Of a DNA stretch of 26,981 bases, positions 13,049-26,981 are shown piece after piece. Origin of the DNA: a virus. A model generated the notes under the pieces. It saw only the letters and a program-made list of their open reading frames with translations. It was not told where the DNA came from and ran no database searches. The translations under genes were made by a program, and so were the position numbers. Within the stretch, counting starts at the first letter, position 1. Every line of letters starts with the position of its first letter. The DNA lies in the IMG/VR virus record IMGVR_UViG_3300045988_122866, positions 1-26,981 of that record. One strand, given 5' to 3'.

Positions 13049-13171
13049 TCAACTTCTCTTTCTACGGCGAATCGCTCTCTTTACGCGGTGCTCCACGTAT
13101 TCGATGAGCGCACCCGCGCCGATAACACCAACATAGATAGCGAGAAGAACAAGACCATCGTGAGTAGACAT
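13049..13171 (-). CDS. Micro-ORF, about 40 aa, with one TM helix and a basic tail (MSTHDGLVLLAIYVGVIGAGALIEYVEHRVKRAIRRRKRS). Coordinates +/-2.
   Basis: SD AAGAGGTAAATCAA. Promoter with hairpin-embedded -35 at about 13205-13239. The overlapping plus-strand track ORF 13010..13432 is an artefact. Confidence 0.35.
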   Translation of the reverse strand: MSTHDGLVLLAIYVGVIGAGALIEYVEHRVKRAIRRRKRS

Positions 13172-13251
13172 TTGATTTACCTCTTTCTTTCTTTTGATGT
13201 ATTCATTATACCAAACAAAGGGGCTTTTGTCAAGCCCCTTTTTTATTTTTT

Positions 13252-13530
13252 TTACAGTTCTTTTCCAACCTTAACAAATACGATTTTCTCCGGCAAGACT
13301 TCGATGCCCTTAATGCCCGCTTCATTGACTTCCTTGTTCGTGCAAGTCCACCCAAACTCATCTAATGCGTCCCATTCACCGTTCCCACTGGGAGTCCAAG
13401 TGTTGAATCCGTCATCAATCATCACGTCATAGCCCTTGCTGTAAGTCTCCATAATCTGTTCGATAGTCATTTGTTGTATTCCCCTTTCCTTTGATGATAC
13501 TATTATAGCATTTCGGGATAGGAATGTCAA
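13252..13530 (-). CDS. Hypothetical protein (92 aa)
   Basis: Track ORF. Promoter at about 13495-13530 (TGTCAAG … TATAAT). TAA stop. Confidence 0.5.
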   Translation of the reverse strand: MTFLSRNAIIVSSKERGIQQMTIEQIMETYSKGYDVMIDDGFNTWTPSGNGEWDALDEFGWTCTNKEVNEAGIKGIEVLPEKIVFVKVGKEL

Positions 13531-13653
13531 GTGGTTTTTGGCAAAAAATGGAAAAAATTTTGCTTTAACGCTTTACTGTGGTAAAGTTCGGGCTGGGACG
13601 CCCTACACGCGCACAACGGCGTAAGAGAAAGAGCGGGAAGCCCGCTCCCGCCC

Positions 13654-13863
13654 TTAATACATTTCGCTACTGGGTTCAACTGTGAAATACTCAACATTCC
13701 GCAAGTCGAGCTTGCCATAGGACTTGTCATTATACATTGTAGCACCTGTCGCAAGTAAGTCATTCATCTTACCTGCAATCTCCATAGCGCGCTGTTCCTC
13801 GAACGCCTGCTGGAAGAGATAGCCCTGACCGCCCTTAGTGTAATAAACAATGCCGTAAATCAT
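13654..13863 (-). CDS. Hypothetical protein (69 aa)
   Basis: SD AAAGGGGAA. Terminator gagcggg-aag-cccgctc follows the TAA. Overlapping track ORF 13527..13763 rejected. Confidence 0.5.
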   Translation of the reverse strand: MIYGIVYYTKGGQGYLFQQAFEEQRAMEIAGKMNDLLATGATMYNDKSYGKLDLRNVEYFTVEPSSEMY

Positions 13864-13993
13864 TTTTCATTCCCCTTTCCTTTTGTGATTATAGAATACC
13901 ACATTCTAACTGATTTGTCAAGACCTTTTTGCAAAAAATCTTTGTTAATTTTTTAACAATCTACGCCGTTAGGAAGGGAGCATTACTGCTCCC

Positions 13994-14326
13994 TTATTCT
14001 GCGTAAAGACTCATCAATTCATTTATCTTATCAATGGCTTCATCAATGTCATCGAGGTAGTTGTCTGCCAACATACTTGCATGGCTGGCTTCCTCGTAGT
14101 CATCATACGCGTCGCTGAGTTCCTGTGTGCCAAACTTGTCTGCCTGTTCGAGGGCGTCTACCTCGTGCCATGCCCTCGACATCTCACCACGCTTAACCTG
14201 ACAGTCGCGGAACGCCTGCTTGCTTTCGTTCATTAACCGTTCCTTTTCAGCTTTGAGAGCCTTGTAAAAATCCTGATTAGTCATTTGAGTATTCCCCTTT
14301 CTTATTGTATCTACATTGTAGCACAT
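13994..14326 (-). CDS. Hypothetical acidic protein (110 aa)
   Basis: Track ORF. Promoter at about 14340-14375. Terminator gggagca-ttac-tgctccc after the TAA. Confidence 0.5.
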   Translation of the reverse strand: MCYNVDTIRKGNTQMTNQDFYKALKAEKERLMNESKQAFRDCQVKRGEMSRAWHEVDALEQADKFGTQELSDAYDDYEEASHASMLADNYLDDIDEAIDKINELMSLYAE

Positions 14327-14413
14327 TACCGCGCATTTGTCAAGACCTTTTTTACTCTTCTCTGCTTGTTAATTTTTTAACAATCTTCGCCGATCCGCAA
14401 GAAAGAGAGAGAC

Positions 14414-14779
14414 TTAATAAGCCTCTCTCCATACCTTAATGATTGTATCATCTTCCACAGTATCAGTGTCATTGTCGTTAATCCACAAGAGCAAGAAGTC
14501 GTTGTCATCAATGTTGAGTGCTTCCACGTCCCACAGGTTGCCCTGCTCATCAATGAGCGTCAGGGTATCGCCCTCGCGTGCGTAGACCTCTGCGCCGACG
14601 AAACGAATACTTCCGCGTTCCGTGCCTGCACCGCACCAATTCTCAATGACCGAGAGGTCGTAGGACTGGGGCGCTTCCTCACAGGCTTCCGCGGTTGTGT
14701 GGTCGTGGAGTGGAGTGAAAAGAGATGCGCAGAGAATGATGCCAAGAGCGATGGTGATGATTTTGGAAACGTTTTTCAT
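14414..14779 (-). CDS. Secreted or lipoprotein-like protein with an N-terminal signal peptide
   Basis: MKNVSKIITIALGIILCASLF… then an acidic domain. Promoter at about 14795-14845 (TTGACA-17-TATACT). TAA stop. Confidence 0.5.
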   Translation of the reverse strand: MKNVSKIITIALGIILCASLFTPLHDHTTAEACEEAPQSYDLSVIENWCGAGTERGSIRFVGAEVYAREGDTLTLIDEQGNLWDVEALNIDDNDFLLLWINDNDTDTVEDDTIIKVWREAY

Positions 14780-14929
14780 TTTGATTTACCTCTTTCTTTT
14801 TGATGATACAAGTATAGCACATGGCTACTGGATTGTCAATAGTCATTTTGCACAAATGTGATGGCGTGGTTTCGGGTATTTTGACGATTGTGCATTATGA
14901 CGAAGTTTCGGCGAGAAATTTGTGCAAAC

Positions 14930-15394: not shown

Positions 15395-15790
15395 TTAGCA
15401 ACTGCCTTCAAGGGACTGAGTGGTTTCCGCATTTAATTTTTCCTCCATATATTCGATTAATTTATCTTTATATTTACAACTATCAATATATCTATTAATA
15501 GTATTTATATCATATTTTTCCATTAAGTGTTCTAATACATATTTGTATTTATTCAACTGATATTCTTCTTGTTCTTCTTTGGTGCTTAATTGAGCCTTTT
15601 CCGCGTCTGATAAAGGTCTGTAAGTAATCGTTCTTGACCCATTATCCTTTTGCTCAATACGTATTGTTTTAAATAATTTCCAATCTCTTACAAAAGGGTC
15701 TTTATCTCTTGTAGTGTTAAAATATTCTTGTTCTAATCTAAATATTACCGCGTCTATCCCTCTTACTTCAAAAGGCTGGTTCCATCCCAT
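15395..15790 (-). CDS. Hypothetical protein (start MGWNQPFEV…)
   Basis: SD GGGAGGA 8 nt before the internal ATG. Overlaps the end of the upstream gene by about 20 nt. TAA stop. Confidence 0.5.
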   Translation of the reverse strand: MGWNQPFEVRGIDAVIFRLEQEYFNTTRDKDPFVRDWKLFKTIRIEQKDNGSRTITYRPLSDAEKAQLSTKEEQEEYQLNKYKYVLEHLMEKYDINTINRYIDSCKYKDKLIEYMEEKLNAETTQSLEGSC

Positions 15791-16160
15791 CTTCAATATC
15801 CTCCCATTCAAATGTTCCATCATCTAATTCATATACAAATGCTTGTTTATAAAATGATGAAACAATTCCATCATTTGTAATTCCTTTTGGACTATTTTTT
15901 ACATCATGAAAACAATTATAAACAATTAGTCCTTGCGTTTCATATCGTGAAAAATCTACTGCCCTTCCCTCAAAATCATAATTATAAAATATGTTTAATA
16001 ATAGCATACACTCATATTGTGCGATTGGCCATTTATTTAATTCTTTTTGCTAATTTGCCATTTTTTGGTATAATACCCAAAAGGCTTTTCTATATAACCA
16101 TAAAAAAAGGAGTGATGCTACTAACGCACAACTCAATAATACAATAAAAATAGTTTCCAT
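15768..16160 (-). CDS. Membrane-anchored protein with one in-frame TAG codon (at about 16050-16052) read through
   Basis: ATG at 16160 with SD AAGGAGTA. Promoter at about 16186-16220 (TTGACA-17-TATTAT). The frame is continuous with track ORF 15768..16007 across a single TAG. N-terminal TM helix IFIVLLSCALVASLLFLWLY. Confidence 0.5.
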
Positions 16161-16299
16161 AAATACTCCTTTTCTTTTTTCTTATAATAATAATAAAATA
16201 AAAATAAAGAAATGTCAAGTCATAGAGCGTGATTGGGCAAAAGTTATTTGTTTTGTTAAAAAAATTTTTAAATATAAAAAGAAAAAATTTTAAATGAAA

Positions 16300-16330
16300 C
16301 TTGACAAAAAAAATTTTTTCGAGTATAATA
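16300..16330 (+). promoter_or_regulatory. Consensus sigma70 promoter TTGACA-N17-TATAAT driving the plus-strand late-type operon
   Basis: cTTGACAaaaaaaattttttcgagTATAATat. GGAGGT SD then ATG at 16354. Coordinates +/-1. Confidence 0.75.
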
Positions 16331-16353
16331 TAAATATAGACTGGAGGTAAAAA

Positions 16354-17409
16354 ATGATAAAACTTGATTATTCTTTACAAACTCCAGAAGAAAGAAATCA
16401 ATTAGTCGAACAAATTTTGGCTGATAATCCAGATCCGCCTGAAAAGTATTTAGAAATTTTAGCAGACTATTTGGTTCTTTGTATGGAGAAACAAGAAAAA
16501 AAGGAGAAAAAATTATTAACTGATAATCGTATGGCTACAGTTAATAAGCGTGAGATTTCTTTTGAAGGTCTTGTTTCCCAACTCGAAAATGGCGAAGATG
16601 GAATTTATAATTTAATTACAGACAATAGAAATACAATATTTCAACCACATATTACAATTACAAAAAAAGATTTAGAAGAGATACCAAGTTTAAATTAGTT
16701 AAGAGAAGCCATTAATGTTTGGGAGGCTAAATTAAAAGTAACAGAAGGCAAAGATGCTTTTGTTATTAAAAAGGCTCTTATTGAAATGCGTAAAGATTAG
16801 TATGTTATGAAAAATGCTTATCGTCGTCCAATAGTGCCTACAAAATTAACTAGATCAAAGTCTTATATTCCATTAGATGATAAAACATTTATTTTTGATG
16901 ATGATGGTTTTCCCATTCCTGATGGAATTAGTTTATTAAGACCTGAAATATGTTCTGCGGTTTTATGTAATTATTCCCGATTAAAGCAAGATAGTTGGGG
17001 CGAATACGATAAAGACTTATGGTATTTAATGGAGGATTTTGATAAGCTTTGTGATAAAGCTTTAGCTAATTATCCTCTTTATGATAGAATCGTTGAATAT
17101 AAAATTGATGGTTTACAAAATATTGACATTCAAGAGAAAATACAAATGGAATTTGGCATTAAGCACAGTCTTGAATATATTTCAAGTTTATGGCGTAATA
17201 AAATTCCAAAATTAATTGCTTCGACTGCGGAAGATGAATATTTAGATAATTATTATTTAAATGTTGAAAAAGGTAAATATAAAAAATGTAGTCGTTGTGG
17301 TAAAATAAAATTAGCTCATAATAAATATTTTAGTAAAAATAAAACAAGTAAAGATGGCTTTTATAGTATTTGTAAAAGTTGTCGAAATTCTAAGGCCAAA
17401 AAATCTTAA
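16354..17409 (+). CDS. Hypothetical protein, 351 aa, with a C-terminal CxxC-N17-CxxC zinc ribbon. Contains 2 in-frame TAG codons (16696, 16795).
   Basis: Track ORFs 16354..16698 and 16807..17409 are in the same frame. The intervening segment has no TAA or TGA. TAA stop. Confidence 0.6.
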
Positions 17410-17458
17410 TATTGTCCTTTTGTTTATAATAAATAGTTGAAAGGAGAATATTTTATTT

Positions 17459-18646
17459 ATGGCTGAAACATATTATTGCGAAAAATGTAATCGCACAATG
17501 AATGGCACGGAATTCTATTCATCTAATAATTTAGAAAAATATCCTAATGATGGTAAATTTCCTGTGTGCAAAAAATGTATGACAATGCACGTCGATAATT
17601 GGAATCCAGATACTTATTTATGGATTTTGCAAGAAGCAGATGTTCCTTATGTCCCAGATGAATGGAATAAATTAATGGAAAAATATGGACGCGATCCGCA
17701 GTCTATGACCGGTATGACAATTCTTGGACGTTATTTGTCAAAAATGAAACTCAAATAGTTTAAAGATTATCGTTGGAAAGATACAGAATTTTTATAGTAG
17801 ATGGCGAATAATAAATTAGAACAAACTATGAAGCGTCAAGGATATGATGCTCAATAGATTGCAACCGCTATTGAAAAAAGTTCTATTGCTATTCCAGAAG
17901 GAGAACTAAAAGAGCCGGTTTATGCTCCACCACCTAATGCCCCTACGGAAGATTATTTCGCACAATAGAGGGGTGAAGTGGAACAAGAATTAGACTTAAC
18001 TGATGAAGACCGCACTTATTTAAGACTTAAATGGGGCAAAACTTATAAACCTGAAGAATGGGTTAAGCTTGAATAGCTGTATGAAGAAATGATGGCTTCT
18101 TATGATATTCAAGGTGCCGGACATAAAGATACGCTAAAATTAATATGTAAGACATCTTTAAAGGCAAATCAATTGATCGATATTGGTGATATTGAAGGTT
18201 TCCAAAAGATGAGCAAAGTATACGATAGCTTAATGAAGTCTGGTAAATTTACTGCTGCTCAAAACAAAGCAGAATCAGGTGAATTTGTTGATTCAATTGG
18301 TGAATTAATTGAATTGTGTGAAAAAGAAGGATATATTGAAAGATATTATGTTGAATAGCCACATGATAAAGTGGATTTAACTATTCAAGATATGCAACGT
18401 TATACTCGCACTCTTATCGAAGATGAAACTAATATTAGCACAATGGTAGAAAAGGCTTTACGCGAAAATGCTAAAGAAGATGAAGAGAAAGCAAAGAACG
18501 CGGAAAGCGATATCGTTGATGATGCTGATTTAAGTATTGAAGAACTTGAAAAAACTATTAAAGATAGTGATTATGCGGATTTTGAGGAATTTAAAGAATA
18601 GGAATCTGCGCAAGATAATGAGTTCTTATAGGGTTTGGATAAATAA
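17459..18646 (+). CDS. Hypothetical protein, 395 aa, with an N-terminal CxxC-N23-CxxC zinc ribbon and an acidic C-terminus. Contains 9 in-frame TAG codons including a tandem TAG-TAG. Candidate small terminase by position only.
   Basis: Track ORFs 17459.., 18089.. and 18371.. share one frame. A codon-by-codon walk finds no TAA or TGA until TAA 18644-18646, which overlaps the TerL ATG (TAATG). SD AAAGGAGAA. Confidence 0.55.
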
Positions 18647-20385
18647 TGGCATTACAAGATTTACTGTAGTTAAGTGATAGCCGTAGAAAAATAGGTCTAT
18701 CACCGGAGCGAGTAGAAGCGGTAATGCCTACTATCCGCAAATACGTTGCCTTTTGGAGAGAATATCCTGATTTATTTGTAGATTTTATGGTGCGAGGAAG
18801 ACGCACTGAAATAAAAGATGGAGAATTTAATTTTTATTTTTATTAGAGAGTATTTCTCCGTTCTGTTATGCGTTATTAGTATGTTTACGCGGTTTTCCCT
18901 CGTGCTTATTCTAAATCATTCTTGTCTGTTATGGCATTAATGATTAGATGTATTTTATATCCTGGTGCGCACTTGTTCGTTACTTCTGGAGGTAAAGAGC
19001 AAGGTGCTAGTATTCTTCATGATAAAGTTCAAGAAATATGTGAACTTATTCCAAGCTTTAATCGAGAAATTGATTGGAGTCGAGGAAAAACTCTTGAAGG
19101 AAAAGATAAAGTTAGATATGTGTTTAAAAATGGTTCAGTTTTGGATAACCTCGCAGCTCGTGAAAGCACTCGTGGTCAGCGTCGTCATGGTGGATTAATG
19201 GAAGAATGTGTCGGTATTGATGATGCTATTCTTCGTGAAGTTATTATTCCTGTTATGGCAATTTCTCGTAGAGCTAAAGATGGCACTACCAATGAACAAG
19301 AGCCATTAAACAAATCACAGATCTATATTACTACTGCTGGTTATAAGGGCACATTCCCTTATGATAGACTTATTGGTTTCTTAGTTCGTATGGTGACTTA
19401 GCCTGATCGTTGTATGGTATTGGGCGGAACATGGCGAACTCCTGTTGCAGTAGGATTACAAAGTAAAACATTTATTACTGACCAAAAGAATGAAGGAACT
19501 TATAATGAAGCTTCATTCGAACGTGAATATGAATCTAAGTGGTCAGGAACTGTTGAGGATGCTTTCTTTAATGGAGAGCATTTTGATAGGAATAGAAAAC
19601 TATTATAGCCTGAATATGAAGCTTCTGGACGTGCGGGCGCACAAGCTTATTATGTGCTTTCTGTAGATGTAGGTCGTAAAGGGTGTGATTCAGTAGTTTG
19701 TGTATTTAAAGTAACACCACAAGCTCAAGGCCCAGCTATTAAATCATTAGTAAATATGTATACTATGTCAGATGACCATTTTGAAGATTAGGCTATTAAA
19801 TTAAAGAAATTATTTTATAAATATAAAGCTAAAACTTTAGTTATAGATGGTAATGGTTTAGGTATTGGACTTTTAGATTATATGGTAAAATCTCAAAATG
19901 ATGAAGATGGTGAATTTTTACCTGATTTTGGTGTTGAGAATGATGATGATGGATATTATAAAAAATATCGCACACCAAATACTCAATTTGATGCTATGTA
20001 TGTTATTAAAGCAAATGCTCCAATAAATACTGAATGTCATGCTAATGCTCAGACTCAATTGCAAGCGGGTAAAGTAAAATTCTTAATAGATGAGAGAACA
20101 GCTAAAGAAAAATTATTAGCTACTCAAAAAGGTTCAAAAATGACTTCTGAACAAAGGGCAGATTATTTAAAACCATTTACTTTAACCTCCATATTAAAAG
20201 AAGAAATGATGAATTTACGCGAAGAAAATGAAGGTATTAATATTATCCTAAAACAGGCAAATCGTGGAATTCGTAAAGATAAATTTTCGGCTTTTGAATA
20301 TGGATTATATTATTTAAAACTTGAAGAAGATAAAAAGAAAAAACGTAAAAAGTTTAATGCGGCTGATTGGTGCTTTTTAAATTAA
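18646..20385 (+). CDS. terL: Terminase large subunit, 579 aa, with 6 in-frame TAG codons
   Basis: Track ORFs 18922.., 19414.. and 19882.. are in one frame, and the frame extends upstream to ATG 18646 across 3 more TAGs. Walker-A-like PRAYSKS after FYFY(Q)RVF. C-terminal nuclease-like segments YVLSVDVGRKGCDSVV and LVIDGNGLGIGLLDYM. Confidence 0.8.
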
Positions 20386-20397
20386 GGAGGGTGGAAA

Positions 20398-20754
20398 ATG
20401 CGTGCTTCAAGAGGAGAAATTAAAATTGAAGAAATCTTAGAAGAAGCAGGACTACCTTTTAAAATGGAATATATCTTTCCAGATTTAAAAAGCCCAAGCG
20501 GGCGTCCGCTTCGTTTTGATTTTGTTATATTTGATGATGATGGAAAAATTGATTTCATTATTGAGTATTAGGGAAAATAGCATTATGAAGCCAGTTCTAA
20601 ATTTGGCGGAAAACGCGGTTTATACCAGTAGCAATATAATGATAATCAAAAAAGACGTTTTTGCGCTTTACATGATTTTAGATTAATAGAGATTCCATAT
20701 ACCGACGAAAACCTTATTTCTTATGATTATATAATGAAATTAGCAGGTTATTAA
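20398..20754 (+). CDS. Small PD-(D/E)xK (Vsr/DUF559-like) nuclease-fold protein, about 118 aa, with 3 in-frame TAGs
   Basis: SD AAGGAGGG. FDFVIFDDDGKIDFIIEY(TAG)GK(TAG)HY fits the D…E-x-x-G-x-Q-H signature if TAG is Gln. TAA stop. Confidence 0.5.
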
Positions 20755-20767
20755 AGGAGGTGGAACT

Positions 20768-22417
20768 TTGGATACGCAAGATCGTAATGAATAGATTCAT
20801 GCTAAAGGTTTTGATATTTATAATGGTCGTTATGAATATAATTATAATGATACCATGGACTATGCCAATAGAAAAATAAAAGTTGGCACAAAAACTTTAG
20901 ATGACGCTATTTTAAAACTTGGTGATTATAGTAAGATTAGATATCCAGGTCAAAATCGTATTATCACGAAACCTGATGTGCTTCGCGCGCTCGCAGAAAG
21001 AGATCTAAATGCTTTGCGATACATCTCTAATTTTTATTATGATATAAGTGGTGTATATCAACGAGTTTGTAATTATGTTGCTTTTTTATATCGTTATGAT
21101 TGGTATATTGCAGCCGAAACTTATGATGACAATGTAAAAGAAGAAAAAGTTTTAAAAGATTTTTATAAAATGTTGAATTATTTTGATAATAGCTATATTA
21201 AAAAGGTTTGCGGAGATATTGCTTTACAAGTTGTTAAAAATGGATGCTATTATGGTTATATAGTTCCTTCAGAGAAAAATCTAATTTTACAAGAATTACC
21301 AGTTAGATATTGTAGAACACGTTATAGTGTAAATAATACCCCAGTTGTTGAATTTGATATGCGATTTTTTGATACTTTTAGAGATATGAATTATCGTTTA
21401 AAAGTATTAAAATTATTCCCAGAAGAATTTGCTAAAGGTTATGTTCTATATAAACAAGGAAAACTTGCTTTGGAAGAGGCAGTTGGATGCTAGCATACTG
21501 GTAGTTGGTATGTTCTTGAACCAGAAAATTGTGTTAAATTTAATATTAATAATAGTGATGTTCCTATTTTTGTAAATTCGATTCCTACTATTATGGATTT
21601 AGATGCAGCGCAAGATCTTGACCGCAAGAAACAAATGTAGAAGTTGCTTAAAATTTTAGTCCAAAAGCTCCCAATGGATAAAAACGGTGATTTGATATTT
21701 GATGTTGATGAAGCCAGAGATATCCATAATAATGCCGTTTAGATGTTATAGAGGGCTATTGGAGTAGATGTTTTAACTACATTTACCGATGTAGATTCTA
21801 TTGATATGTCTGATAAGAATACTACTACAACGACAGATGATTTAGCTAAAGTTGAACGTAGCGTTTATAATTCGTTAGGTATTTCATAGAATTTATTTAA
21901 TACTGATGGTAATATGGCTTTAGAAAAATCAGTGTTAAATGATGAATCTACAATAAGAAGTTTAATTTTATAGTTTAATATATTCTTTAATAGAATTATT
22001 GAAAAAAAGAGTAGTAATAAGAAATATAATTTTAGATTTTATTTATTAGAAACTACTCAGAATAATTATCAAACACTTTCTAAAATGTATAAAGAACAAG
22101 CGCAAATGGGACAATCAAAGCTATTGTCTTAGATTGCTCTTGGACATTCGTAGAGTTTTATTCTTAATGCAGCTCATTTTGAAAATGAGATTTTACATTT
22201 AAGTGAAATTATGATTCCTCCTCTTATGAGTTCTACTATGGGTAGTGAAGATATTTTGGGTTTAAAAGGTTCATCATCTAATAATAAAACTCAAAATAAT
22301 TCAGGAAGTTCAGGCTCTGGAACTGCTAAAGCTTCTAATGGCGAGGCAGGACGTCCGGAAAAACCTGATGATTAGAAAAGTGAAAAAACTATTCAAAATA
22401 AAGAAGCAATGAAATAA
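20768..22417 (+). CDS. Putative portal protein, about 549 aa, with at least 9 in-frame TAG codons
   Basis: SD AAAGGAGGT then a TTG start (alternative ATG at 20855). The frame is continuous with track ORF 20855..21493 through to TAA 22415-22417, with no TAA or TGA in 1.6 kb. Size and position after TerL fit a portal. Confidence 0.55.
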
Positions 22418-22426
22418 GGAGGATTT

Positions 22427-24004
22427 ATGAAACATACAAGTATTAAATTAAATACACCTTGTGAGTTTATAAATATAACTCCTGTAAATCCTTTAATTTC
22501 TAAATGCCAAATTAAGGTTTGTTATGTAGATGATAAACCTAATCGTAACAAAAGTGTAATTACTAAAGATGTAGCGACTGAGATGGCTAATAGCCTTCCT
22601 GGTAGTCCTATTGTTGGCTTTTTTAATGAGAATGCTGAAGATTTTGAAGAACATAATAGGATAATTGAATTATCTAACGGCGAATTTAGAATGAGAGATG
22701 ATACTCGTCCTTATGGTTTTGTTGATCTTGGAGCTAAAGTTTGGTTTTAGAAATTTTTGGATGATGGTGTTGCCGAACGTGAGTATTTAATGACTGAAGG
22801 TTATTTGTGGACTGGTTAGTATCCTGAATGTAAACGTGTAATTGATAAAGGGAATAATCATTCTATGGAGCTTGATGAAAAAACATTAAATGCTACGTGG
22901 GCAAAAGATAGCAATGGAAAACCTTAGTTTTTTATTATAAATAAGGCAATTATTTCTAAACTTTGTATTTTGGGAGAAGAAAATGAACCTTGTTTCGAAG
23001 GTTCCCAAATCAATGTGAATTTTTCATTCGATGATGGTTTTAAGAACACTTTGTTCTCCATGATGAATGAACTTAAAGAATTTATGAAAGAAGGAGGAGC
23101 CAAAGTGTTTACACAATACGCTGTTAATATTGGCGACAATTTGTGGAATTCTCTTTATTCTTATATTGAGAATAAGTATCCTGTCGAACCAAAGAATTAT
23201 TGTTCTGTTTATCGCATTGAAGGTGTTTGCGAAGATGGTGAACAAAAGTTTGCTGTTTTGAAGAATAAGCAGGATGAAAAATACTATCGTATGGATTTTT
23301 CTCTTGAAGCAGAGAATTTCGTTCCTTCTGATACTTTGATTGAAGTAACTGATTATGCTCCTGCGGCTGAGCCTCAGTTTGCTCTTAATGCTGTAGAAGA
23401 ATTTGAAAATGAGTATGCTTCAAAAAAGAAAGCAGAAGAGGACAAAAATAATAAATCAAATAATCCTGACGGTGAAAATAAATCAGAGGGCAATGATAAT
23501 AAAAAGAACCCTGATAATGGAGAGCCCTCTAATAAGTCTGATAAAGGCGACAACGGTGAGAATGATGATGATAAAAAGAAAAAGAAAAATTATTCTCTTG
23601 AGGACGTTGTTGAATATACTGAACTTAAAGCTCAGTATGATGAATTACAGACTAAATTCGCAGCTCTTGAAACTGAAAATAATAGCTTGAAAGAGCAAAT
23701 TGCTCCACTTGCTGAATTTAAAAATGCTGCTGAGAAGAAAGATAAAGAAGATATGATTGCTAAATTCTATATGCTTTCTGATGAAGATAAAGCTGATGTT
23801 GTTGAAAATATTGATAAATATTCTCTTGATGATATTGAAGCTAAATTATCTGTTATTTGTGTTCGCAACAAGGTGAGTTTCGACCTTGACGAAAATAATA
23901 AGCCCAATGGTGCTACTACTTTTAATTTGAACAATAATGGTTCAGAAGACGATGATATGCCCGCTTGGGTGAAGGCGGCTTTTGCTACCGCCAACAAAAA
24001 TTAA
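22427..24004 (+). CDS. Scaffold-like protein, 525 aa: N-terminal globular domain (3 TAGs at 22748, 22817, 22925), acidic low-complexity linker, C-terminal coiled coil. Possibly a protease-scaffold fusion.
   Basis: SD AAGGAGG. Track ORFs 22427..22750 and 22970..24004 are in the same frame, verified codon by codon. Contains a KE/D-rich segment and heptad-like repeats. Confidence 0.5.
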
Positions 24005-24021
24005 TAAGGAGGACATACTAA

Positions 24022-24939
24022 ATGTTTAAAGACTTTTTGAATAAGAATCTTCCTATTAAGTCTCAGGCAAAGTATGTTGAGTTTGGTTACGGTCAGGTCG
24101 AGCCTAATCACCTTTCCGCGCAAAGAAATGCTCAAATCTATGCTCAACTTCCTGCCAATAAAGACATTGAGATTCTTGAAAACGGTCAGTTTGTAAAGTA
24201 TGACTATGCTGCTAATGGTAATGGTATCGGCGAAGTCAACTTTACTGGCGAAGGTGAATGGATGCTCGTTTATAATGAGATTAAGCTTTATCGTGATCAT
24301 TATGATGGCAGTAAGCAGTGGGACTGCGAATTTGCTATGATTAAAGATGACTATCAGGCTCGTGTTTATAGTCCTTATGATTGGGAGCATACCGAGGTTG
24401 AATATGGTGGTCGTTTCTGGAATGGTGTTGATGAAAAGGGTCAAACCTATAAGTTAATCAATCAGACCGTTTCCGCAGATCAAGGTTTAAAGACTGTTAC
24501 TATTGCTGGTCGTGTTTATGATGTTGATGAAACCGGCAAGTTTACTTATGATGGTAATGAATATACTCTTGATAGTAATCATCAGGTTGCTAATGTTCCT
24601 GTAAAGTATTACTATGATAAGCTTCTTACTGATGTTCCTGATATGTATGAAATGAATTGGACCAATGATCCATATCATAAGTTAGGTATTTATCATGAGA
24701 AGTTCATGGAATCTGGCACTTCTATGGTTCCTCGTGTATTTAAGACCATGATTGGTGATCTTTATACTACTAATATGATTAATGAAGAGACTCTTGCTGT
24801 TGGAGATAAGCTTTCTCCTTCTGCTGCTACAAAGGGTATTCTTAGCAAAACTGGCGACGATTCAATGACCTGGCAGGTTGTTAAGGTTTATACTATGCCT
24901 GATGGTCAAAAGGGCGTCAAGGTAATGCGTATTAAGTAA
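24022..24939 (+). CDS. Major structural protein (capsid, decoration or second coat protein), 305 aa, TAG-free
   Basis: Strong SD AAGGAGG. Codon usage shifts to GCT/GGT/CGT/CTT, typical of highly expressed genes. Lies between the scaffold-like gene and the capsid candidate. Confidence 0.45.
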   Translation: MFKDFLNKNLPIKSQAKYVEFGYGQVEPNHLSAQRNAQIYAQLPANKDIEILENGQFVKYDYAANGNGIGEVNFTGEGEWMLVYNEIKLYRDHYDGSKQWDCEFAMIKDDYQARVYSPYDWEHTEVEYGGRFWNGVDEKGQTYKLINQTVSADQGLKTVTIAGRVYDVDETGKFTYDGNEYTLDSNHQVANVPVKYYYDKLLTDVPDMYEMNWTNDPYHKLGIYHEKFMESGTSMVPRVFKTMIGDLYTTNMINEETLAVGDKLSPSAATKGILSKTGDDSMTWQVVKVYTMPDGQKGVKVMRIK

Positions 24940-24956
24940 GAAAGGAGAAAAGGATA

Positions 24957-26063
24957 ATGTTAGATAAAAATAATTTAATTGCTCTTATGAAGCAAGTTGC
25001 TAAGGCTGATCCTTCTGCTCCTGTTGCTTATAGTTATGAGGGAAAAAATCTTAGTTATGAAGCCTTAAATGAAACTCTTCGTAATGAAATGAATGAGTTG
25101 GCTGGTACTTACGCTCTTTATCGTGAAAATAAGAATCTTATTTTCTCTATGATTGAGCAGACTCTTGATGAGGTTCTTCCTAAGAAAGTTATTCAGCAAT
25201 ATGATCAGTTTGCTGAGGTTAAAACTTTCGCTCAGGGTGATAAGCCTATTTTCCGTCGTCCTCTTAATAATCGTGCTCGTGCTAAGCAGTTTGTAACTCG
25301 CGTTGGTCTTGCTGGTATTTATGAAGTCTTCAAGCTCGGACCTAAAGAGAATGAAGCCTTTGAGGTACGTACTAGCGCTATCGGCGGAGCTGCTCAGATT
25401 GGCTTCGAAGAGTTCCTTGATGGTCGTGTTGATTTCGGTGAAGTAACCAAGATCATCATGGATGGTATGGATGAACTTATTTATAAAGAAGTTGCTGCTG
25501 CTCTTAGATCTTCTATCAATCAGCTTCCTCCTGCTAACCGCGTTGCGGCTGCCGGATTTGATGAAGCTGCTATGGATCGTTTGATCACTATTGCTTCTGC
25601 TTATGGTACTCCTACTATTTATTGTACTTATGAGTTCGCTGTTAAGATGATTCCTCATGAGGCTTGGAGATATACTGAAGCTATGAAGAACGAGCTTTGG
25701 AATAATGGTCGTCTTGCTACTTACAAGGGCACTAAGGTTATTATTCTTGAGCAGGGCTTTGAAGATGAAACAAATACTCGTAAGGTTATTGATCCTGGTT
25801 ATGCTTGGGTTATTCCTACGGGCGCTGATGGTAAGCCTGTAAAGATTGCTTTCGAAGGTGGCACTATTGTTGACGAGTTCAACAATTATGATCGTTCTCG
25901 TGAGATTCAGGTTTACAAGAAGGTTGGCGTAGTTTGTATGCTTGCTAATAACATCTGTGCTTATGTTGATACTTCACTTCTCGGTCAGATGTATACTTGG
26001 AATTATGATGGAGTCACCGGTAAGGTTGTCACTTATGATGGCCGTCTTGATGGCAAGATCTAA
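24957..26063 (+). CDS. Putative major capsid protein, 368 aa, TAG-free
   Basis: SD AAGGAGAAAAGG. High-expression codon bias. Followed by the strongest terminator in the late region. Size fits an HK97-fold coat protein. Confidence 0.5.
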   Translation: MLDKNNLIALMKQVAKADPSAPVAYSYEGKNLSYEALNETLRNEMNELAGTYALYRENKNLIFSMIEQTLDEVLPKKVIQQYDQFAEVKTFAQGDKPIFRRPLNNRARAKQFVTRVGLAGIYEVFKLGPKENEAFEVRTSAIGGAAQIGFEEFLDGRVDFGEVTKIIMDGMDELIYKEVAAALRSSINQLPPANRVAAAGFDEAAMDRLITIASAYGTPTIYCTYEFAVKMIPHEAWRYTEAMKNELWNNGRLATYKGTKVIILEQGFEDETNTRKVIDPGYAWVIPTGADGKPVKIAFEGGTIVDEFNNYDRSREIQVYKKVGVVCMLANNICAYVDTSLLGQMYTWNYDGVTGKVVTYDGRLDGKI

Positions 26064-26082
26064 TTTAATATAAATTATTCCA

Positions 26083-26125
26083 TGGGGAGAAGGGATTAAA
26101 CTCCCTCTCCCCATATTTTTGTTTT
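26083..26125 (+). terminator. Intrinsic terminator (tggggagaaggga…tccctctcccca plus a T-run) after the capsid gene
   Basis: A 12-13-bp stem followed by tatttttgtttt. Confidence 0.7.
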
Positions 26126-26149
26126 ATGAGTAAAAGGAGAAATTGAATA

Positions 26150-26743
26150 ATGATTAATAATGAAGATATTTATAATGTAAAAAATAGAAGCACTAGTGTA
26201 GTTGTTTATACTATTCCTGATACTAATTTGCGTCGTGAATTTGCGCCTGGTGAAACTAAGCGTATTCCATTTGGTGAGCTAGAGAAATTAACTTATCAGG
26301 CAGGCGGTCGCGAATTAATTGCTAATTTTTTACAAATTTTAGAGCCAGAAGTAACTCATACTCTTAATGTTCATACTGAACCTGAATATAATATGTCAGA
26401 GCAACAAGTTGCTGATTTAATTCTTAATGGCTCATTAGATGCTTTCTTAGATGCTCTTGATTTTGCTCCTATTGGAATTATTGACTTAATCAAGAATTTA
26501 TCTGTTAGCCTTCCTATTACTGATATTAATAAGCGTAGAGCTTTGAAGGAAAAAACTGGGTTTGATGTTGATAAAGCTATTGCTAATGATATCGCTAGTA
26601 AAGAAGAAGATACTATTGTAGAGAAAGAACCCGCTGCTAAGCGCCGTGTAGTAAGAGAAGAGCCTACTACTCAAGGTCGTCGCACAAGCGGTTCTGGATA
26701 TAAAGTAATTAATAAAACCGAGGAAACTTCCTCCAAGAAATAA
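26150..26743 (+). CDS. Hypothetical structural-module protein, 197 aa, TAG-free
   Basis: SD AAAGGAGAA. TAA stop. Confidence 0.5.
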   Translation: MINNEDIYNVKNRSTSVVVYTIPDTNLRREFAPGETKRIPFGELEKLTYQAGGRELIANFLQILEPEVTHTLNVHTEPEYNMSEQQVADLILNGSLDAFLDALDFAPIGIIDLIKNLSVSLPITDINKRRALKEKTGFDVDKAIANDIASKEEDTIVEKEPAAKRRVVREEPTTQGRRTSGSGYKVINKTEETSSKK

Positions 26744-26762
26744 TTTATAGGAGGGCGATTAA

Positions 26763-26981
26763 GTGGGAACATTATTCTCAGCTGTTTATAATCGCTTTCT
26801 AAACAAGGTTACTGATGACATGTATCTGGAGTTGACTCCTGAAGATACTCTAAGAGATTTATAGAATCTTATAATAGATGCTATTCCTGGATTTGAATTT
26901 CCACGAAAAAATCTTTTAGATTATAATTTAGATGTTGCTACTATTAATGAATCTGATGCTATGCCAGATGATTTTATTGTA
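26763..26981 (+). CDS. Hypothetical protein, 5' part only (runs off the window), GTG start, with one in-frame TAG
   Basis: SD TAGGAGGGCG. The frame stays open to the window end apart from one TAG. Confidence 0.4.

What the first reader, a model, noticed from the sequence alone, without database searches (positions are those of the whole stretch)
16050..26981. TAG is read as an amino acid through the AT-rich late compartment
Seen directly: TerL (18646-20385) has 6 in-frame TAGs, the portal at least 9, the zinc-ribbon protein 17459-18646 has 9 including a TAG-TAG pair, gene 16354-17409 has 2, the scaffold-like gene 3, the small nuclease 3, gene 26763 has 1 and the minus-strand gene 15768-16160 has 1. 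The same frames contain no TAA or TGA over spans up to 1.7 kb of about 33% GC DNA, where random stops would be frequent. All real stops here are TAA, with one TGA. Inference on identity: in the PD-(D/E)xK protein the motif reads E-Y-[TAG]-G-K-[TAG]-H-Y, and the second TAG sits exactly where the family signature has Gln (G-x-Q-H). This supports TAG->Gln, as in crAss-like and Lak phages. No suppressor tRNA was found in this window.
Basis: partly seen in the sequence, partly recalled or inferred. Interest (0 to 1): 0.92.

Follow-up and report, generated by a model that had tools for sequence, protein, structure and literature searches.

The report
TAG-to-glutamine recoding in gut phage
The late genes of this roughly 195-kb gut phage contain many in-frame TAG "stop" codons that are read as glutamine; this is a well-documented phage trick (genetic code 15), so the finding is real but a new example rather than a new phenomenon.

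Summary
There are 34 in-frame TAGs in eight genes between 15768 and 26981. Those frames have no internal TAA or TGA, where shuffles of the six large TAG-bearing genes expect 25-35 per gene, and no gene in the window ends with TAG.

The TAG=Gln interpretation is supported by four independent comparisons:
- Near-identical strains swap TAG only with CAG or CAA.
- Across 99 relatives, CAA/CAG is the dominant alternative at TAG sites.
- In 20 sister genomes with no TAG at all, 20 of the 32 comparable sites (g1-g6) are Gln.
- Distant standard-code phages have invariant Gln at several sites.

Near-identical genomes carry a CUA-anticodon tRNA about 40 kb outside the window. It has Gln-like identity features (unpaired U1, G73) and is followed directly by a minimal HDV-like "theta" ribozyme.

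The 25 early genes (1-15000) use TAG neither as stop nor as sense codon, so they read the same under either code. They carry a dense set of host-type promoters.

All of this matches published descriptions (Borges et al.; the phAss-1 group; Kienbeck et al.), and public protein predictions already place Q at these sites. Verdict: a new member of a known kind, of modest interest.

Side observations: the capsid and tail-tube genes almost never use TAG, and two unrelated suppressor-tRNA bodies occupy the same locus in different strains.

The parts
16354..17409 (+). g1, first gene of the late array. It matches a PHROG family labelled 'sigma factor' and has a C-terminal zinc ribbon. In-frame TAGs at 16696 and 16798.
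   Evidence: phrog_5767 E=3e-54 across residues 31-347, spanning both TAGs. Both sites are Gln in 19-20 of 20 zero-TAG relatives. Pfam and PDB sequence searches give no support for the sigma label.
17459..18646 (+). g2, YonG-like protein (annotated as a putative small terminase in relatives). Nine in-frame TAGs: 17756, 17795, 17798, 17855, 17966, 18074, 18356, 18599, 18629.
   Evidence: phrog_3314 E=5e-56 over residues 2-341. Precomputed Pfam hit YonG_N on the identical gene in public contigs. Site 18074 is CAG in strain L009.
18646..20385 (+). g3, terminase large subunit. Six in-frame TAGs: 18667, 18844, 18877, 19399, 19606, 19789.
   Evidence: tblastn gives 46-47% identity over 92% of the length to standard-code Enterococcus and Geobacillus phages. 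Codons 67 and 382 are Gln in 8 of 8 standard-code phages.
20398..20754 (+). g4, small protein resembling a homing endonuclease, lying between TerL and the portal. Three in-frame TAGs: 20569, 20578, 20629.
   Evidence: phrog_559 and phrog_9084 E about 1e-23. All three sites are Gln in 20 of 20 zero-TAG relatives. A gene occupies the same position in standard-code Enterococcus phage VRE9_4.
20855..22417 (+). g5, portal protein. Nine in-frame TAGs: 21491, 21638, 21740, 21749, 21887, 21971, 22130, 22151, 22373.
   Evidence: phrog_2739 E=4e-80 over residues 77-546 in one stretch. Public gene calls give the same 520-aa product.
22427..24004 (+). g6, YonD-like protein (a scaffold or prohead-protease position in relatives). 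Three in-frame TAGs, all in the first third: 22748, 22817, 22925.
   Evidence: The sites are Gln in 15-20 of 20 zero-TAG relatives.
24022..26743 (+). g7 (24022-24939), g8 (24957-26063, YonB-type major capsid protein) and g9 (26150-26743). These late genes have no TAG, a higher GC content (0.34-0.40) and, in g7 and g8, more CAG than CAA.
   Evidence: TAG makes up only 1-5% of Gln-equivalent codons in these genes across 78 recoded relatives, against 19-41% in g1-g6.
26820..26981 (+). g10, cut off by the end of the window. One in-frame TAG at 26862.
   Evidence: The public gene call is 171 aa, starting at the ATG that corresponds to 26820. TAG share is 35% in relatives.
15768..16160 (-). m1, a 130-aa minus-strand gene in the AT-rich zone. 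One in-frame TAG at codon 37 (+ strand 16050-16052). It ends in TGA.
   Evidence: The TAG is conserved in six strains. In more distant relatives the codon is TAG 19, CAG 3, CAA 1, TTA 3, and all 26 alignments span it.
15395..15790 (-). m2, a 131-aa minus-strand gene in the AT-rich zone with no TAG.
16301..16329 (+). A perfect sigma-70/sigmaA-type promoter match (TTGACA, 17 nt, TATAAT) 24 nt upstream of g1. It is the only 12-of-12 match in 14000-26981.
16190..16218 (-). A near-perfect promoter match (TTGACA, 17 nt, TATTAT) upstream of m1, divergent from the g1 promoter.
228..14839 (-). Early block of about 25 short minus-strand genes at 40-46% GC. TAG is used neither as a stop (15 TAA, 10 TGA) nor in frame. 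Most genes have their own consensus promoter, a strong Shine-Dalgarno sequence and a terminator.
   Evidence: 74 promoter-like sites against 24.8 +/- 4.6 expected. The block adjoins the late block in two other long contigs.

Best explanation
The window comes from a siphovirus of about 195 kb, related to SPbeta, from gut metagenomes. It uses genetic code 15 for most of its late genes.

Shown:
- TAG is a sense codon in TerL, the portal, the YonG-like, YonD-like and sigma-like genes, a small nuclease and tail genes.
- It is evolutionarily interchangeable with CAA and CAG, the glutamine codons.
- TAG never terminates a gene in the window.
- The early genes contain no TAG at all, so the unmodified host machinery reads them correctly.
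- Genomes 97-98% identical to the window in the late block (and 93-96% where the early block could be compared) carry an array of about 21 tRNA genes roughly 40 kb beyond the window's left end. One of these tRNAs has a CUA anticodon and a Gln-like acceptor end.
- A 55-nt minimal HDV-like (theta-type) ribozyme fold starts one nucleotide after that tRNA.

Inferred:
- After infection, host RNA polymerase transcribes the TAG-free early genes from their many consensus promoters.
- The phage suppressor tRNA is transcribed, its 3' end is released by the ribozyme, and host enzymes charge it with glutamine.
- Only then can full-length packaging, portal and tail proteins be made, so the code switch acts as a timing gate for late functions.
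- TAG is kept out of the highest-copy virion proteins (major capsid, major tail tube), probably because suppression is slower or less reliable than normal decoding.
For: Open frames:
- 34 in-frame TAGs and no internal TAA or TGA. Shuffles expect 25-35 TAA+TGA in each of g1, g2, g3, g5 and g6, and 7.5 in the short g4.
- With TAG read through, the region becomes a tidy head-to-tail gene array.

Homology across the TAGs:
- PHROG and tblastn alignments are single stretches that span the TAG positions.
- Gene order matches standard-code Enterococcus phage VRE9_4.

Glutamine identity:
- TAG alternates only with CAG or CAA at 6 polymorphic sites in strains about 97% identical.
- Over 99 relatives, CAA and CAG make up 58% of the non-TAG codons at TAG sites. 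In the reverse direction, relatives' TAGs fall on 6.4% of the window's CAA codons and 3.9% of its CAG codons, against 1.4% or less for any other codon.
- In 20 zero-TAG relatives, Gln is the majority residue at 20 of 32 sites, against 37 of 70 for control Gln codons. BLOSUM62 totals are Q 110, E 67, K 36.
- In 8 distant standard-code phages, Gln is invariant at TerL codons 67 and 382.

No TAG terminators:
- No gene in the window ends with TAG. The 25 early genes end in TAA (15) or TGA (10).

Suppressor tRNA:
- A CUA-anticodon tRNA is present in all 8 relatives scanned. One of them is IMG/VR contig 118370, whose late block is 97.9% identical to the window.
- The tRNA scores 57.8 bits on the Rfam tRNA model.
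- It has U1 unpaired with position 72, G73, G18G19 and a normal T-arm stem (the T-loop is canonical in the 90-nt allele only), like the tRNA-Gln genes of relatives.
- The 73-nt allele has no long variable arm.

Ribozyme:
- RF02682 matches end to end at 26.1 bits, and all 18 proposed pairs are canonical. The first G lies 1 nt after the tRNA 3' end.
- It occurs once per genome in 10 contigs of this species-level group.

Literature:
- The same architecture is described by Borges et al. (bioRxiv 10.1101/2021.08.26.457843), for phAss-1 (PMC10607447) and for theta ribozymes (PMC10879173).
- TAG-to-Gln decoding was confirmed by proteomics in crAss-like phages, according to the abstract of PMC9523058.
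Against: - There is no protein-level evidence for this phage.
- The suppressor tRNA and ribozyme are not in the window. I could not show them on the two contigs that are 100% identical to it (k119_127087 and ZEEV15-1 scaffold_17), only on genomes 97-98% identical in the late block.
- The tRNA's amino-acid identity rests on acceptor-end features and protein alignments. Overall similarity to other tRNAs was uninformative and no isotype model was available.
- The common 90-nt allele has an enlarged variable region, which is unusual for a tRNA-Gln.
- At 12 of 32 TAG sites the zero-TAG relatives do not have Gln as the majority residue, although control Gln codons behave the same way.
- The ribozyme scores below the gathering threshold of the nearest Rfam family. 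It is invariant apart from one L3 position, so there is no covariation support.
- The timing-gate role is inferred only from gene content and promoters. No expression data exist, and the host is unknown.
Confidence: 0.93

Rival explanations
1. The TAG-interrupted genes are pseudogenes in a decaying prophage or a defective element, and the TAGs are true stops.
For: Under the standard code, TerL, the portal and g2 break into 3-8 fragments.
Against: - No TAA or TGA accompanies the TAGs in frames where 25-35 are expected.
- The same TAG positions are conserved in dozens of independent assemblies of 190-200 kb.
- TAG alternates only with Gln codons.
- The phage is abundant: the capsid protein is on record in 138 blocks of the collection.
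Confidence: 0.01
2. TAG is a sense codon but encodes something other than glutamine, for example tyrosine (a supF-like GUA-to-CUA change in the neighbouring tRNA-Tyr), serine or leucine (because of the long variable region of the 90-nt allele), lysine or pyrrolysine, or tryptophan.
For: - The CUA tRNA lies next to a 90-nt tRNA-Tyr(GUA), and its most common allele is also 90 nt.
- Lys and Glu are the next most frequent residues at TAG columns.
- Kienbeck et al. predict non-Gln isotypes for about 30% of ribozyme-associated suppressor tRNAs.
Against: - Tyr, Ser, Leu and Trp are essentially absent from TAG columns. Gln is invariant at many sites, and the spectrum of residues mirrors that of ordinary Gln codons.
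- TAG exchanges with CAA and CAG 10-40 times more often than with nearly every other codon; the closest, TCA, is still 3-5 times lower.
- The CUA tRNA has G73 and an unpaired U1, whereas the adjacent tRNA-Tyr has G1-C72 and A73. The two are only 66% identical.
- The 73-nt allele, which serves the same TAG sites in strains 98% identical, has no long arm, and that excludes Ser, Leu and Tyr identity.
- G18G19 and a normal-length D-loop and anticodon stem are present in both alleles (plus a canonical T-loop in the 90-nt allele), unlike tRNA-Pyl (the tRNA-Pyl features are from my own knowledge).
Confidence: 0.04
3. The phage does not supply the suppression. Either the host decodes TAG as an amino acid or it carries its own amber suppressor, and the phage has simply adapted to its host's code.
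For: - No tRNA lies in the window.
- Borges et al. detected suppressor tRNAs in only 40% of TAG-recoded genomes.
Against: - All 8 near-identical genomes scanned encode a CUA tRNA.
- The early genes avoid TAG completely, which would be unnecessary in a host that reads TAG as sense.
- Sister lineages at about 70% protein identity have no TAG at all in the same genes.
- As far as I know, no bacterium is known to read TAG as Gln genome-wide.
Confidence: 0.03
4. This refines the main explanation rather than excluding it. Suppression is deliberately partial, so TAG acts as a dosage throttle as well as a timing gate, and truncated products may also have functions. For example, m1 would yield a 36-residue hydrophobic peptide before the switch.
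For: - TAG makes up 1-5% of Gln-equivalent codons in the major capsid block and the tail-tube gene, against 17-63% in other late genes, across 56-78 recoded relatives for most genes.
- m1 and g1 both have host-type promoters yet contain TAG.
Against: - Genes with 9-17 TAGs could not yield useful amounts of full-length protein unless each suppression event were efficient.
- The high-copy genes also differ in GC content and CAG use in the zero-TAG lineages. Part of the pattern may therefore reflect general codon bias rather than avoidance of TAG itself.
Confidence: 0.2

Closest known systems
Alternatively coded gut phages using code 15 (crAss-like, Lak, and the Firmicutes-infecting 'gemstone' clades of Borges et al., bioRxiv 10.1101/2021.08.26.457843)
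   Same: - In-frame TAG in structural and packaging genes.
- Early genes compatible with the standard code.
- A phage-encoded tRNA(CUA).
- Recoded and standard-code lineages that are closely related.
- Genomes of about 150-200 kb, with recoded modules spread around the genome.
   Different: - I could not place this lineage in a named clade.
- Lysis genes, which that study highlights as the most biased, are not in the window and were not examined.
- No release-factor gene was seen in the roughly 100 kb inspected.
The phAss-1 / proposed Phassvirus group (PMC10607447; GenBank OQ749652, filed by NCBI under 'Caudoviricetes code 15 clade')
   Same: - Human-gut siphoviruses related to SPbeta and Enterococcus phage EF1.
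- TerL, tape-measure and other late genes interrupted by TAG.
- tRNA-Sup(CTA) genes inside a large tRNA array.
- Gln inferred from TerL alignments.
   Different: - TerL is only 44% identical.
- phAss-1 is 136 kb, against about 195 kb here.
- phAss-1 has three suppressor tRNAs of 74-77 nt with a U1-A72 pair and an encoded CCA. This lineage has one, with an unpaired U1, no encoded CCA, and in most strains a 90-nt body.
Theta ribozymes: minimal HDV-like ribozymes 3' of phage tRNAs (Kienbeck et al. 2024, PMC10879173)
   Same: - A fold of about 55 nt that lacks P4.
- G1 lies 1 nt from the tRNA 3' end.
- The associated tRNA is an amber suppressor with no encoded CCA.
- The genome uses code 15.
   Different: - I did not run the authors' own descriptor.
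- About 90% of their predicted hosts are Bacteroidota, whereas this phage's relatives infect Bacillota.
- Self-cleavage has not been tested.
SPbeta-like and EF1-like siphoviruses of Bacillota (SPbeta, Enterococcus phages VRE9_4, H1 and EF1, Geobacillus virus E3, Brevibacillus phage Sundance)
   Same: - The same order of late genes: YonG-like, TerL (YonF), a small nuclease, portal, YonD-like, a YonB-type capsid protein, and the YomW, YomV and YomU tail genes.
- TerL is 32-47% identical.
   Different: - All of these use the standard code.
- In several of them the tRNA array sits just upstream of the terminase module, not about 40 kb away.
Classical amber suppressor supE (tRNA-Gln with a CUA anticodon) of Escherichia coli
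   Same: A Gln-type tRNA body with a CUA anticodon inserts glutamine at UAG. A weak 1:72 pair and G73 favour glutamine identity. This comparison rests on my own knowledge of the tRNA identity literature.
   Different: - supE is a weak suppressor in a host that still uses TAG as a stop.
- Here the codon has been removed from terminator use across the sampled genome and is used as a regular sense codon.

Membership tests
Code 15 (TAG=Gln) recoded phage | In-frame TAG in conserved genes, with homologs aligning across the TAG positions rather than to separate fragments | tested here: met
Code 15 (TAG=Gln) recoded phage | TAG positions align with glutamine in standard-code homologs | tested here: met
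   Gln is the majority residue at 20 of 32 sites, which matches the behaviour of ordinary Gln codons. Best BLOSUM62 totals: Q 110, E 67.
Code 15 (TAG=Gln) recoded phage | TAG is not used as a terminator, and coding density rises when genes are called with TAG as sense | tested here: met
   None of about 36 genes ends in TAG. ORFs of at least 100 aa total 8732 aa under the standard code and 12747 aa with read-through. The whole-window rise is no larger than for TGA or TAA read-through (15692 and 18481 aa), but only TAG read-through turns the late block into one contiguous gene array.
Code 15 (TAG=Gln) recoded phage | The phage encodes a tRNA with a CUA anticodon | tested here: met
   It is absent from the window. 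It is present in all 8 related genomes scanned, including one 97.9% identical to the window in the late block. It was not shown on the window's own contig.
Code 15 (TAG=Gln) recoded phage | Glutamine found at TAG positions in the protein itself | not testable with these tools
   This needs proteomics of virions or metaproteomics.
Theta / minimal HDV-like ribozyme | Nested double-pseudoknot fold (P1 with a G1-U wobble, P1.1, P2, P3), an L3 of the UCCUCGC type, and a C at the start of J4/2 | tested here: met
   L065:16046-16100. P1 6/6, P3 3/3, P1.1 2/2 and P2 7/7 pairs are canonical. L3 is UCCUCGC, and C43 lies in GCUAA.
Theta / minimal HDV-like ribozyme | Cleavage site within 5 nt (usually within 1 nt) of a tRNA 3' end | tested here: met
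   The tRNA ends at L065:16045 and G1 is at 16046.
Theta / minimal HDV-like ribozyme | Reaches a curated covariance-model threshold, or shows covariation | tested here: inconclusive
   RF02682 scores 26.1 bits against a gathering score of 44, with E=0.0017 in a 101-nt scan only. The sequence is invariant apart from one L3 position, so there is no covariation. No theta-ribozyme family turned up in the scans.
Theta / minimal HDV-like ribozyme | Self-cleavage that is abolished by mutating the catalytic C | not testable with these tools
   This needs in vitro transcription and a cleavage assay.
tRNA-Gln identity of the CUA tRNA | U1 with a weak or absent 1:72 pair, G73, G10, U35, and a class I body | tested here: inconclusive
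   Both alleles have U1 unpaired, G73, G10, G2-C71 and U35. The 73-nt allele is class I. The 90-nt allele has an expanded variable region of about 22 nt. No isotype-specific model was available, and nearest-neighbour typing was uninformative.
tRNA-Pyl (the label ARAGORN gives by default) | Short D-loop without G18G19, a 6-bp anticodon stem, a 3-nt variable loop and an atypical T-loop (from my own knowledge) | tested here: not met
   Both alleles have G18G19 in an 8-nt D-loop, and the 73-nt allele has a 5-bp anticodon stem (ARAGORN and RNAfold draw 6 bp in the 90-nt allele, including G-U pairs). The 90-nt allele has a canonical TTCGAAT T-loop, whereas the 73-nt allele's T-loop (ATCGACA) is itself atypical.
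SPbeta-like siphovirus structural module | YonG, YonF (TerL), YonD, YonB, YomW, YomV and YomU homologs in conserved order | tested here: met
   Precomputed Pfam hits on identical genes in public contigs, TerL matches to genes annotated YonF, and shared gene order.

The most novel reading that the evidence does not exclude
The suppressor system may be a modular master switch rather than only a passive code change. Four observations point that way:
1. The only perfect host-type promoter in the late block drives g1, a putative late transcription factor that itself needs two TAG read-throughs. Late transcription would then be gated by maturation of the suppressor tRNA.
2. TAG is systematically excluded from the highest-copy virion proteins, which makes it a dosage filter.
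3. The tRNA body upstream of an invariant theta ribozyme behaves as an exchangeable cassette. Two unrelated CUA tRNAs, of 73 and 90 nt, occupy the identical junction in strains 98% identical.
4. The 90-nt version is an unusual suppressor with a Gln-like acceptor end and an expanded variable region.
Probability: 0.25. Interest if true: 0.55.

Novelty: new member of a known kind. Interest (0 to 1): 0.3.

Why it matters
In practical terms, any annotation of this abundant gut phage under the standard code shatters its terminase, portal and tail genes. The window is a clean test case for code-aware gene calling.

Biologically it adds a well-resolved example of the code-switch model in an SPbeta-like phage of Bacillota. 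All the published components are visible together:
- TAG-free early genes under host promoters.
- Late genes with TAG read as glutamine.
- A suppressor tRNA joined to a theta ribozyme.
- Sister lineages about 70% identical in these proteins that have not recoded at all.

The clade therefore offers natural paired genomes for studying how recoding starts. It may also show why the most abundant virion proteins stay free of the recoded codon. None of this overturns current understanding.

Tried and rejected
- A megablast of the late block against 50,697 phage records found nothing, so there is no close cultured or deposited relative.
- Pfam on the window proteins was nearly empty. PHROGs and the precomputed Pfam hits in public contigs were needed.
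- I first read PHROG families 15503 and 24618, which match the two ends of TerL separately, as a sign of recoded genomes inside PHROGs. I dropped that because TerL of Enterococcus phage EF1 is split by an HNH endonuclease insertion (H6/H7).
I therefore could not walk along the two contigs that are 100% identical to the window and used IMG/VR contigs instead.
- Typing the CUA tRNA by its nearest neighbours among 155 tRNAs was uninformative, since all were about 65% identical.
- ARAGORN's 'tRNA-SeC(tca)' calls in two strains have two mismatches in the acceptor stem, and no in-frame TGA occurs in those strains' late genes. I do not regard them as opal suppressors.
- A tRNA-like gene with a 6-nt anticodon loop at the start of the array remains unexplained.
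- The extra Rfam tRNA hit at L065:12966-13040 has the loop CCTCTAA. It reads as Arg(UCU) with C33, not as a second suppressor.
- I tried to find the tRNA arrays of the zero-TAG lineages through a conserved tRNA anchor, but the tRNA bodies are too mosaic. The exact ribozyme sequence occurs only in the window's own species-level group.
- The 'sigma factor' label of g1 found no support in Pfam or in PDB sequences.
- I did not run a structure prediction, because the listed homologs were too similar to each other to make a useful alignment.

Full report
**Checking the observation**

I re-derived the open reading frames under each possible stop-codon reassignment. I then counted stop codons in all three frames of each candidate gene. 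With TAG read through, window 16351-26743 becomes a compact head-to-tail array on the + strand:
- g1, 16354-17409
- g2, 17459-18646
- g3, 18646-20385
- g4, 20398-20754
- g5, 20855-22417
- g6, 22427-24004
- g7, 24022-24939
- g8, 24957-26063
- g9, 26150-26743
- the start of g10, from 26820

In-frame TAG counts are 2, 9, 6, 3, 9, 3, 0, 0, 0 and 1. The minus-strand gene m1 (15768-16160) has one more.

None of these frames has an internal TAA or TGA. The other two frames of the same DNA hold 16-105 of them. Shuffles expect 25-35 per gene for g1, g2, g3, g5 and g6, and 0 of 1000 shuffles had none. For the short g4 the expectation is 7.5, and 2 of 1000 shuffles had none. Every late gene ends in TAA, and m1 ends in TGA. 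No tRNA and no Rfam family is found in the window.

**What the genes are**

PHROG profiles match across the TAG positions in single stretches:
- the portal, E=4e-80 over residues 77-546
- g2, E=5e-56 over residues 2-341
- g1, E=3e-54 over residues 31-347
- TerL, several families
- g4, homing-endonuclease families

By tblastn, TerL is 46-47% identical over 92% of its length to Enterococcus phages VRE9_4 and H1 and to Geobacillus virus E3. It is 32-35% identical to SPbeta-like Bacillus and Brevibacillus phages, where the gene is annotated YonF. It is 44% identical to phage Phass-1, which NCBI files under 'Caudoviricetes code 15 clade'. Standard-code phage VRE9_4 has the same gene order: TerL, small nuclease, portal and four further PHROG families.

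The capsid-like protein g8 is present, letter for letter, on many metagenomic contigs of 100-200 kb. Their neighbouring genes carry the SPbeta-type Pfam families YonG_N, YonD_N, YonB, YomW, YomV, YomU and YomO. Those public gene calls are already full length, and the public TerL sequences carry Q at the TAG positions. The pipeline that produced them had therefore already chosen code 15.

Two ENA contigs are 100% identical to parts of the window. They are k119_127087 (159 kb), matching window 4414-24779, and ZEEV15-1 scaffold_17 (195 kb), matching window 1-11496. The second one wraps around its own ends, as a circular or circularly permuted genome would.

**Which amino acid**

Four independent comparisons agree on glutamine.

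1. In six strains about 97% identical to the window, 203 of 204 TAG comparisons are conserved. Every difference, in either direction, is with CAG or CAA, at six sites.
2. Across 99 relatives with 76-100% capsid identity, the codons opposite the window's TAGs are TAG 1191, CAA 775, CAG 207, GAA 157 and AAA 92. Conversely, the relatives' TAGs fall on 6.4% of the window's CAA codons and 3.9% of its CAG codons. For most other codons the figure is 0.5% or less, and the highest, TCA, is 1.4%.
3. Twenty of these relatives have no TAG at all in the nine genes, nor in nine downstream tail genes, so they are unambiguously standard code. In them, the window's 32 comparable TAG sites (those in g1-g6) have Gln as the majority residue at 20 sites and in every genome at 16 sites. 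The window's ordinary Gln codons give 37 of 70. Summed BLOSUM62 scores are Q 110, E 67 and K 36.
4. In eight distant standard-code phages, Gln is the commonest aligned residue. It is invariant at TerL codons 67 and 382.

The TAG in m1 alternates with CAG and CAA in relatives, with TTA in three, and all alignments span it.

**The early block**

Positions 1-15000 are 40-46% GC. They hold about 25 short minus-strand genes. None of these ends in TAG (15 TAA, 10 TGA), and none contains TAG in frame. They read the same under either code.

The region holds 74 sigma-70-like promoter matches against 24.8 +/- 4.6 expected. About 29 of them are perfect or near-perfect TTGACA-17-(TG)TATAAT, nearly all on the minus strand. 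Each is followed by a strong AAAGGAAAGGGG-type ribosome-binding site. There are also 33 terminator-like hairpins against 14.6 expected.

The late block shows no such enrichment (64 against 56). It has a single perfect promoter match, at 16301-16329, directly upstream of g1. A near-perfect one upstream of m1 faces the other way.

This block is contiguous with the late block in other assemblies, but it varies between strains. Most relatives stop aligning to the left of about 15,100-15,240, which is where GC content changes.

**Finding the suppressor**

The window has no tRNA, so I walked leftwards through IMG/VR contigs of the same phage. Contig IMGVR_UViG_3300045988_118370 (197,006 bp) is 97.9% identical to the window across the late block and 93-96% across the leftmost 4.6 kb of the early block.

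About 40 kb beyond the window's left end, on the window's minus strand, lies an array of about 21 tRNA genes. It includes a tRNA with a CUA anticodon at L065:15956-16045. All eight relatives scanned have it. The Rfam tRNA model scores it at 57.8 bits.

Two unrelated bodies occupy the same junction:
- A 90-nt form with a variable region of about 22 nt, in six of the eight arrays scanned.
- A 73-nt class I form, in contigs 132576 and 118866 (and in a third contig, 3300029860_000005, found).

Both have U1 unpaired with position 72 (U-U or U-C), G73, G2-C71, G10, G18G19 and the anticodon arm GGU-CUCUAAA-ACC. Both fold as cloverleaves. The bona fide tRNA-Gln genes of related phages share the G73 discriminator, most begin with U1, and one has a similar D-arm. 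The adjacent tRNA-Tyr has G1-C72 and A73. In a more distant recoded relative, the slot upstream of tRNA-Tyr holds a tRNA-Gln(UUG).

ARAGORN's 'Pyl' label is only its default name for a CUA anticodon, and most of the features that define tRNA-Pyl are absent. The 73-nt allele serves the same TAG positions in strains 98% identical, so class II identities (Ser, Leu, Tyr) are excluded for those strains.

**A ribozyme after the tRNA**

Prompted by Kienbeck et al. (PMC10879173), I examined the conserved sequence that follows both tRNA alleles. In a short-range scan, Rfam's HDV-like family RF02682 aligns end to end with L065:16046-16100, with P4 deleted. The score is 26.1 bits with E=0.0017, below the gathering score of 44.

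All proposed pairs are canonical: P1 6/6 including the G1-U wobble, P3 3/3, P1.1 2/2 and P2 7/7. L3 is UCCUCGC, as in the HDV ribozyme, and a C occupies the catalytic position in GCUAA. G1 lies one nucleotide after the tRNA's 3' end.

The L3 core motif turned up nowhere else in the loci that cover the tRNA array. In IMG/VR the exact sequence occurs once per genome in ten contigs, all from this species-level group.

This matches the published 'theta ribozyme' arrangement. In that study, 96% of genomes with a suppressor-tRNA-associated ribozyme use code 15. Activity is untested, and the sequence offers no covariation.

**How it most likely works**

Shown:
- TAG is a Gln-equivalent sense codon in most late genes.
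- It is absent from the early genes and from all terminators.
- Near-identical genomes encode a Gln-like tRNA(CUA) fused to an HDV-like fold.

Inferred, following the model of Borges et al.:
- Host RNA polymerase and the host's standard code express the early genes.
- The suppressor tRNA is produced and matured.
- Only then can the packaging, portal and tail proteins be completed.

g1 has the single perfect host-type promoter of the late block and contains two TAGs. This would fit a scheme in which a late regulator is itself gated by suppression. However, g1's 'sigma factor' label is only a PHROG name, unsupported by Pfam or by PDB sequence searches.

**Comparison with what is known, and novelty**

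Every element has a published precedent:
- Code 15 in gut phages, with recoded late genes and recoded and standard lineages that are closely related (Borges et al.).
- Recoding in exactly this SPbeta/EF1-related neighbourhood, with tRNA-Sup(CTA) genes (phAss-1, PMC10607447).
- Theta ribozymes next to amber-suppressor tRNAs (PMC10879173).
- Proteomic proof of TAG=Gln in crAss-like phages (PMC9523058, abstract).

This lineage is not in the deposited phage collection, and I found no paper on it. Even so, public pipelines already translate it with Q. I therefore class it as a new member of a known kind.

**Things worth a second look**

- TAG makes up 17-63% of Gln-equivalent codons in most late genes. 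It makes up only 1-5% in g7, in the major capsid gene g8, in g9, and in the major tail-tube gene, across 56-78 recoded relatives for most genes.
- Those same genes are richer in GC and use CAG heavily, and this holds in the zero-TAG lineages too. Part of the pattern may therefore be general expression-linked codon bias.
- The two non-homologous suppressor tRNA bodies upstream of one invariant ribozyme suggest cassette-like replacement.
- The 90-nt allele is an atypical suppressor.

Noticed in passing
window 24022-26743; L005:15072-16070: The highest-copy virion genes almost never use TAG. These are g7, the major capsid gene g8, g9 and the YomU tail-tube gene. TAG makes up 1-5% of their Gln-equivalent codons, against 17-63% in neighbouring late genes, across 56-78 recoded relatives for most genes. 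They are also richer in GC (0.36-0.41) and use CAG as much as or more than CAA (except g9), and this holds in the zero-TAG lineages too.
   Followed up: yes
window 1-14000, mostly minus strand: The density of consensus promoters is extraordinary: 74 sigma-70-like sites against 24.8 +/- 4.6 expected, about 29 of them perfect or near-perfect TTGACA-17-TGnTATAAT. Each precedes a short gene with an AAAGGAAAGGGG-type ribosome-binding site and often a terminator (33 against 14.6 expected). The early genes look like individual host-transcribed units, in the Gram-positive style.
   Followed up: partly
L065:15956-16045 versus L074:15138-15210 and L071:7688-7760: Two unrelated CUA-anticodon tRNA bodies (90 nt and 73 nt) sit at exactly the same junction in strains 98% identical. 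The junction lies between a conserved upstream sequence and the same downstream ribozyme. This looks like cassette replacement of the tRNA alone.
   Followed up: partly
L065:15997-16018: The 90-nt suppressor tRNA has a variable region of about 22 nt (TTTTCCCTTTGAAGGAGTCGTT) with only a 3-bp hairpin. This is unusual for a tRNA whose acceptor end looks like that of tRNA-Gln.
   Followed up: partly
L116-L129 (13 of these loci), L148-L151, L153-L154, L025: Twenty relatives have no in-frame TAG in any of 18 late genes examined. They are 68-70% identical to the window in these proteins, with capsid identity of 81-87%. Standard-code and recoded lineages therefore coexist in one clade. GC content is about the same in both.
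   Followed up: partly
window 15085-15240: A compositional and homology breakpoint. GC falls from about 45% to about 28%, and most strains about 97% identical to the window stop aligning to the left of this point. The early block is therefore a strain-variable segment, found with this exact sequence in only 2-3 assemblies.
   Followed up: partly
window 15768-16160 (minus strand): m1 has a near-consensus host-type promoter and a TAG at codon 37. Under the standard code it would yield only a 36-residue hydrophobic peptide (METIFIVLLSCALVASLLFLWLYRKAFWVLYQKMAN), and with suppression a 130-residue protein. Its 3' end overlaps the start of m2.
   Followed up: partly
window 2041-2418 and 4471-4896 (minus strand): Two paralogous early genes of 125 and 141 aa, about 78% identical at the DNA level. 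Both are unusually rich in GC (0.51-0.53).
   Followed up: no
window 8239-8691 (minus strand): An early gene with an AbrB/MazE-type N-terminal domain (precomputed Pfam hit PF04014 on the identical gene). It may be a transition-state regulator or an antitoxin-like DNA binder.
   Followed up: no
L055:16781-17560; window 20398-20754: Mobile-element-type nucleases also use TAG. A GIY-YIG homing endonuclease inside the tRNA array has 4 TAGs. The small nuclease between TerL and the portal has 3. A nuclease occupies that same position in standard-code Enterococcus phages.
   Followed up: partly
L055:10997-13707: Two tandem glycine-rich proteins resembling tail fibres (phrog_1589), with 4-5 TAGs each, lie just upstream of the tRNA array and far from the main structural module. 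Recoded genes are thus spread over several modules.
   Followed up: partly
L065:4679-4749: A tRNA-like gene opens the array (42.7 bits on the Rfam tRNA model). It has a 6-nt anticodon loop (ATTTAA), which ARAGORN reports as Lys or Stop with a two-base anticodon. The loop differs between strains (tt or tc). Its function is unknown.
   Followed up: partly
L072:16911-16990; L074:16489-16568: ARAGORN calls a UCA-anticodon tRNA ('SeC') in two strains. The acceptor stem has two mismatches, and no in-frame TGA occurs in those strains' late genes. It is probably a false call or a degenerate tRNA rather than an opal suppressor.
   Followed up: partly
L065:9499-9549: A sub-threshold match to the type-P1 twister ribozyme (RF03160, 39 bits against a gathering score of 67.2, E=1.2e-5), lying between tRNA-Phe and tRNA-Ser in the array.
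   Followed up: no
L023-L035: Contigs of this phage clade are binned into MAGs labelled Mollicutes, Clostridium, Lachnospiraceae, Erysipelotrichaceae, Bacilli, and in one case Muribaculaceae. Most are Bacillota, but the labels disagree with each other. They are more likely phage contigs swept into bins than integrated prophages.
   Followed up: no
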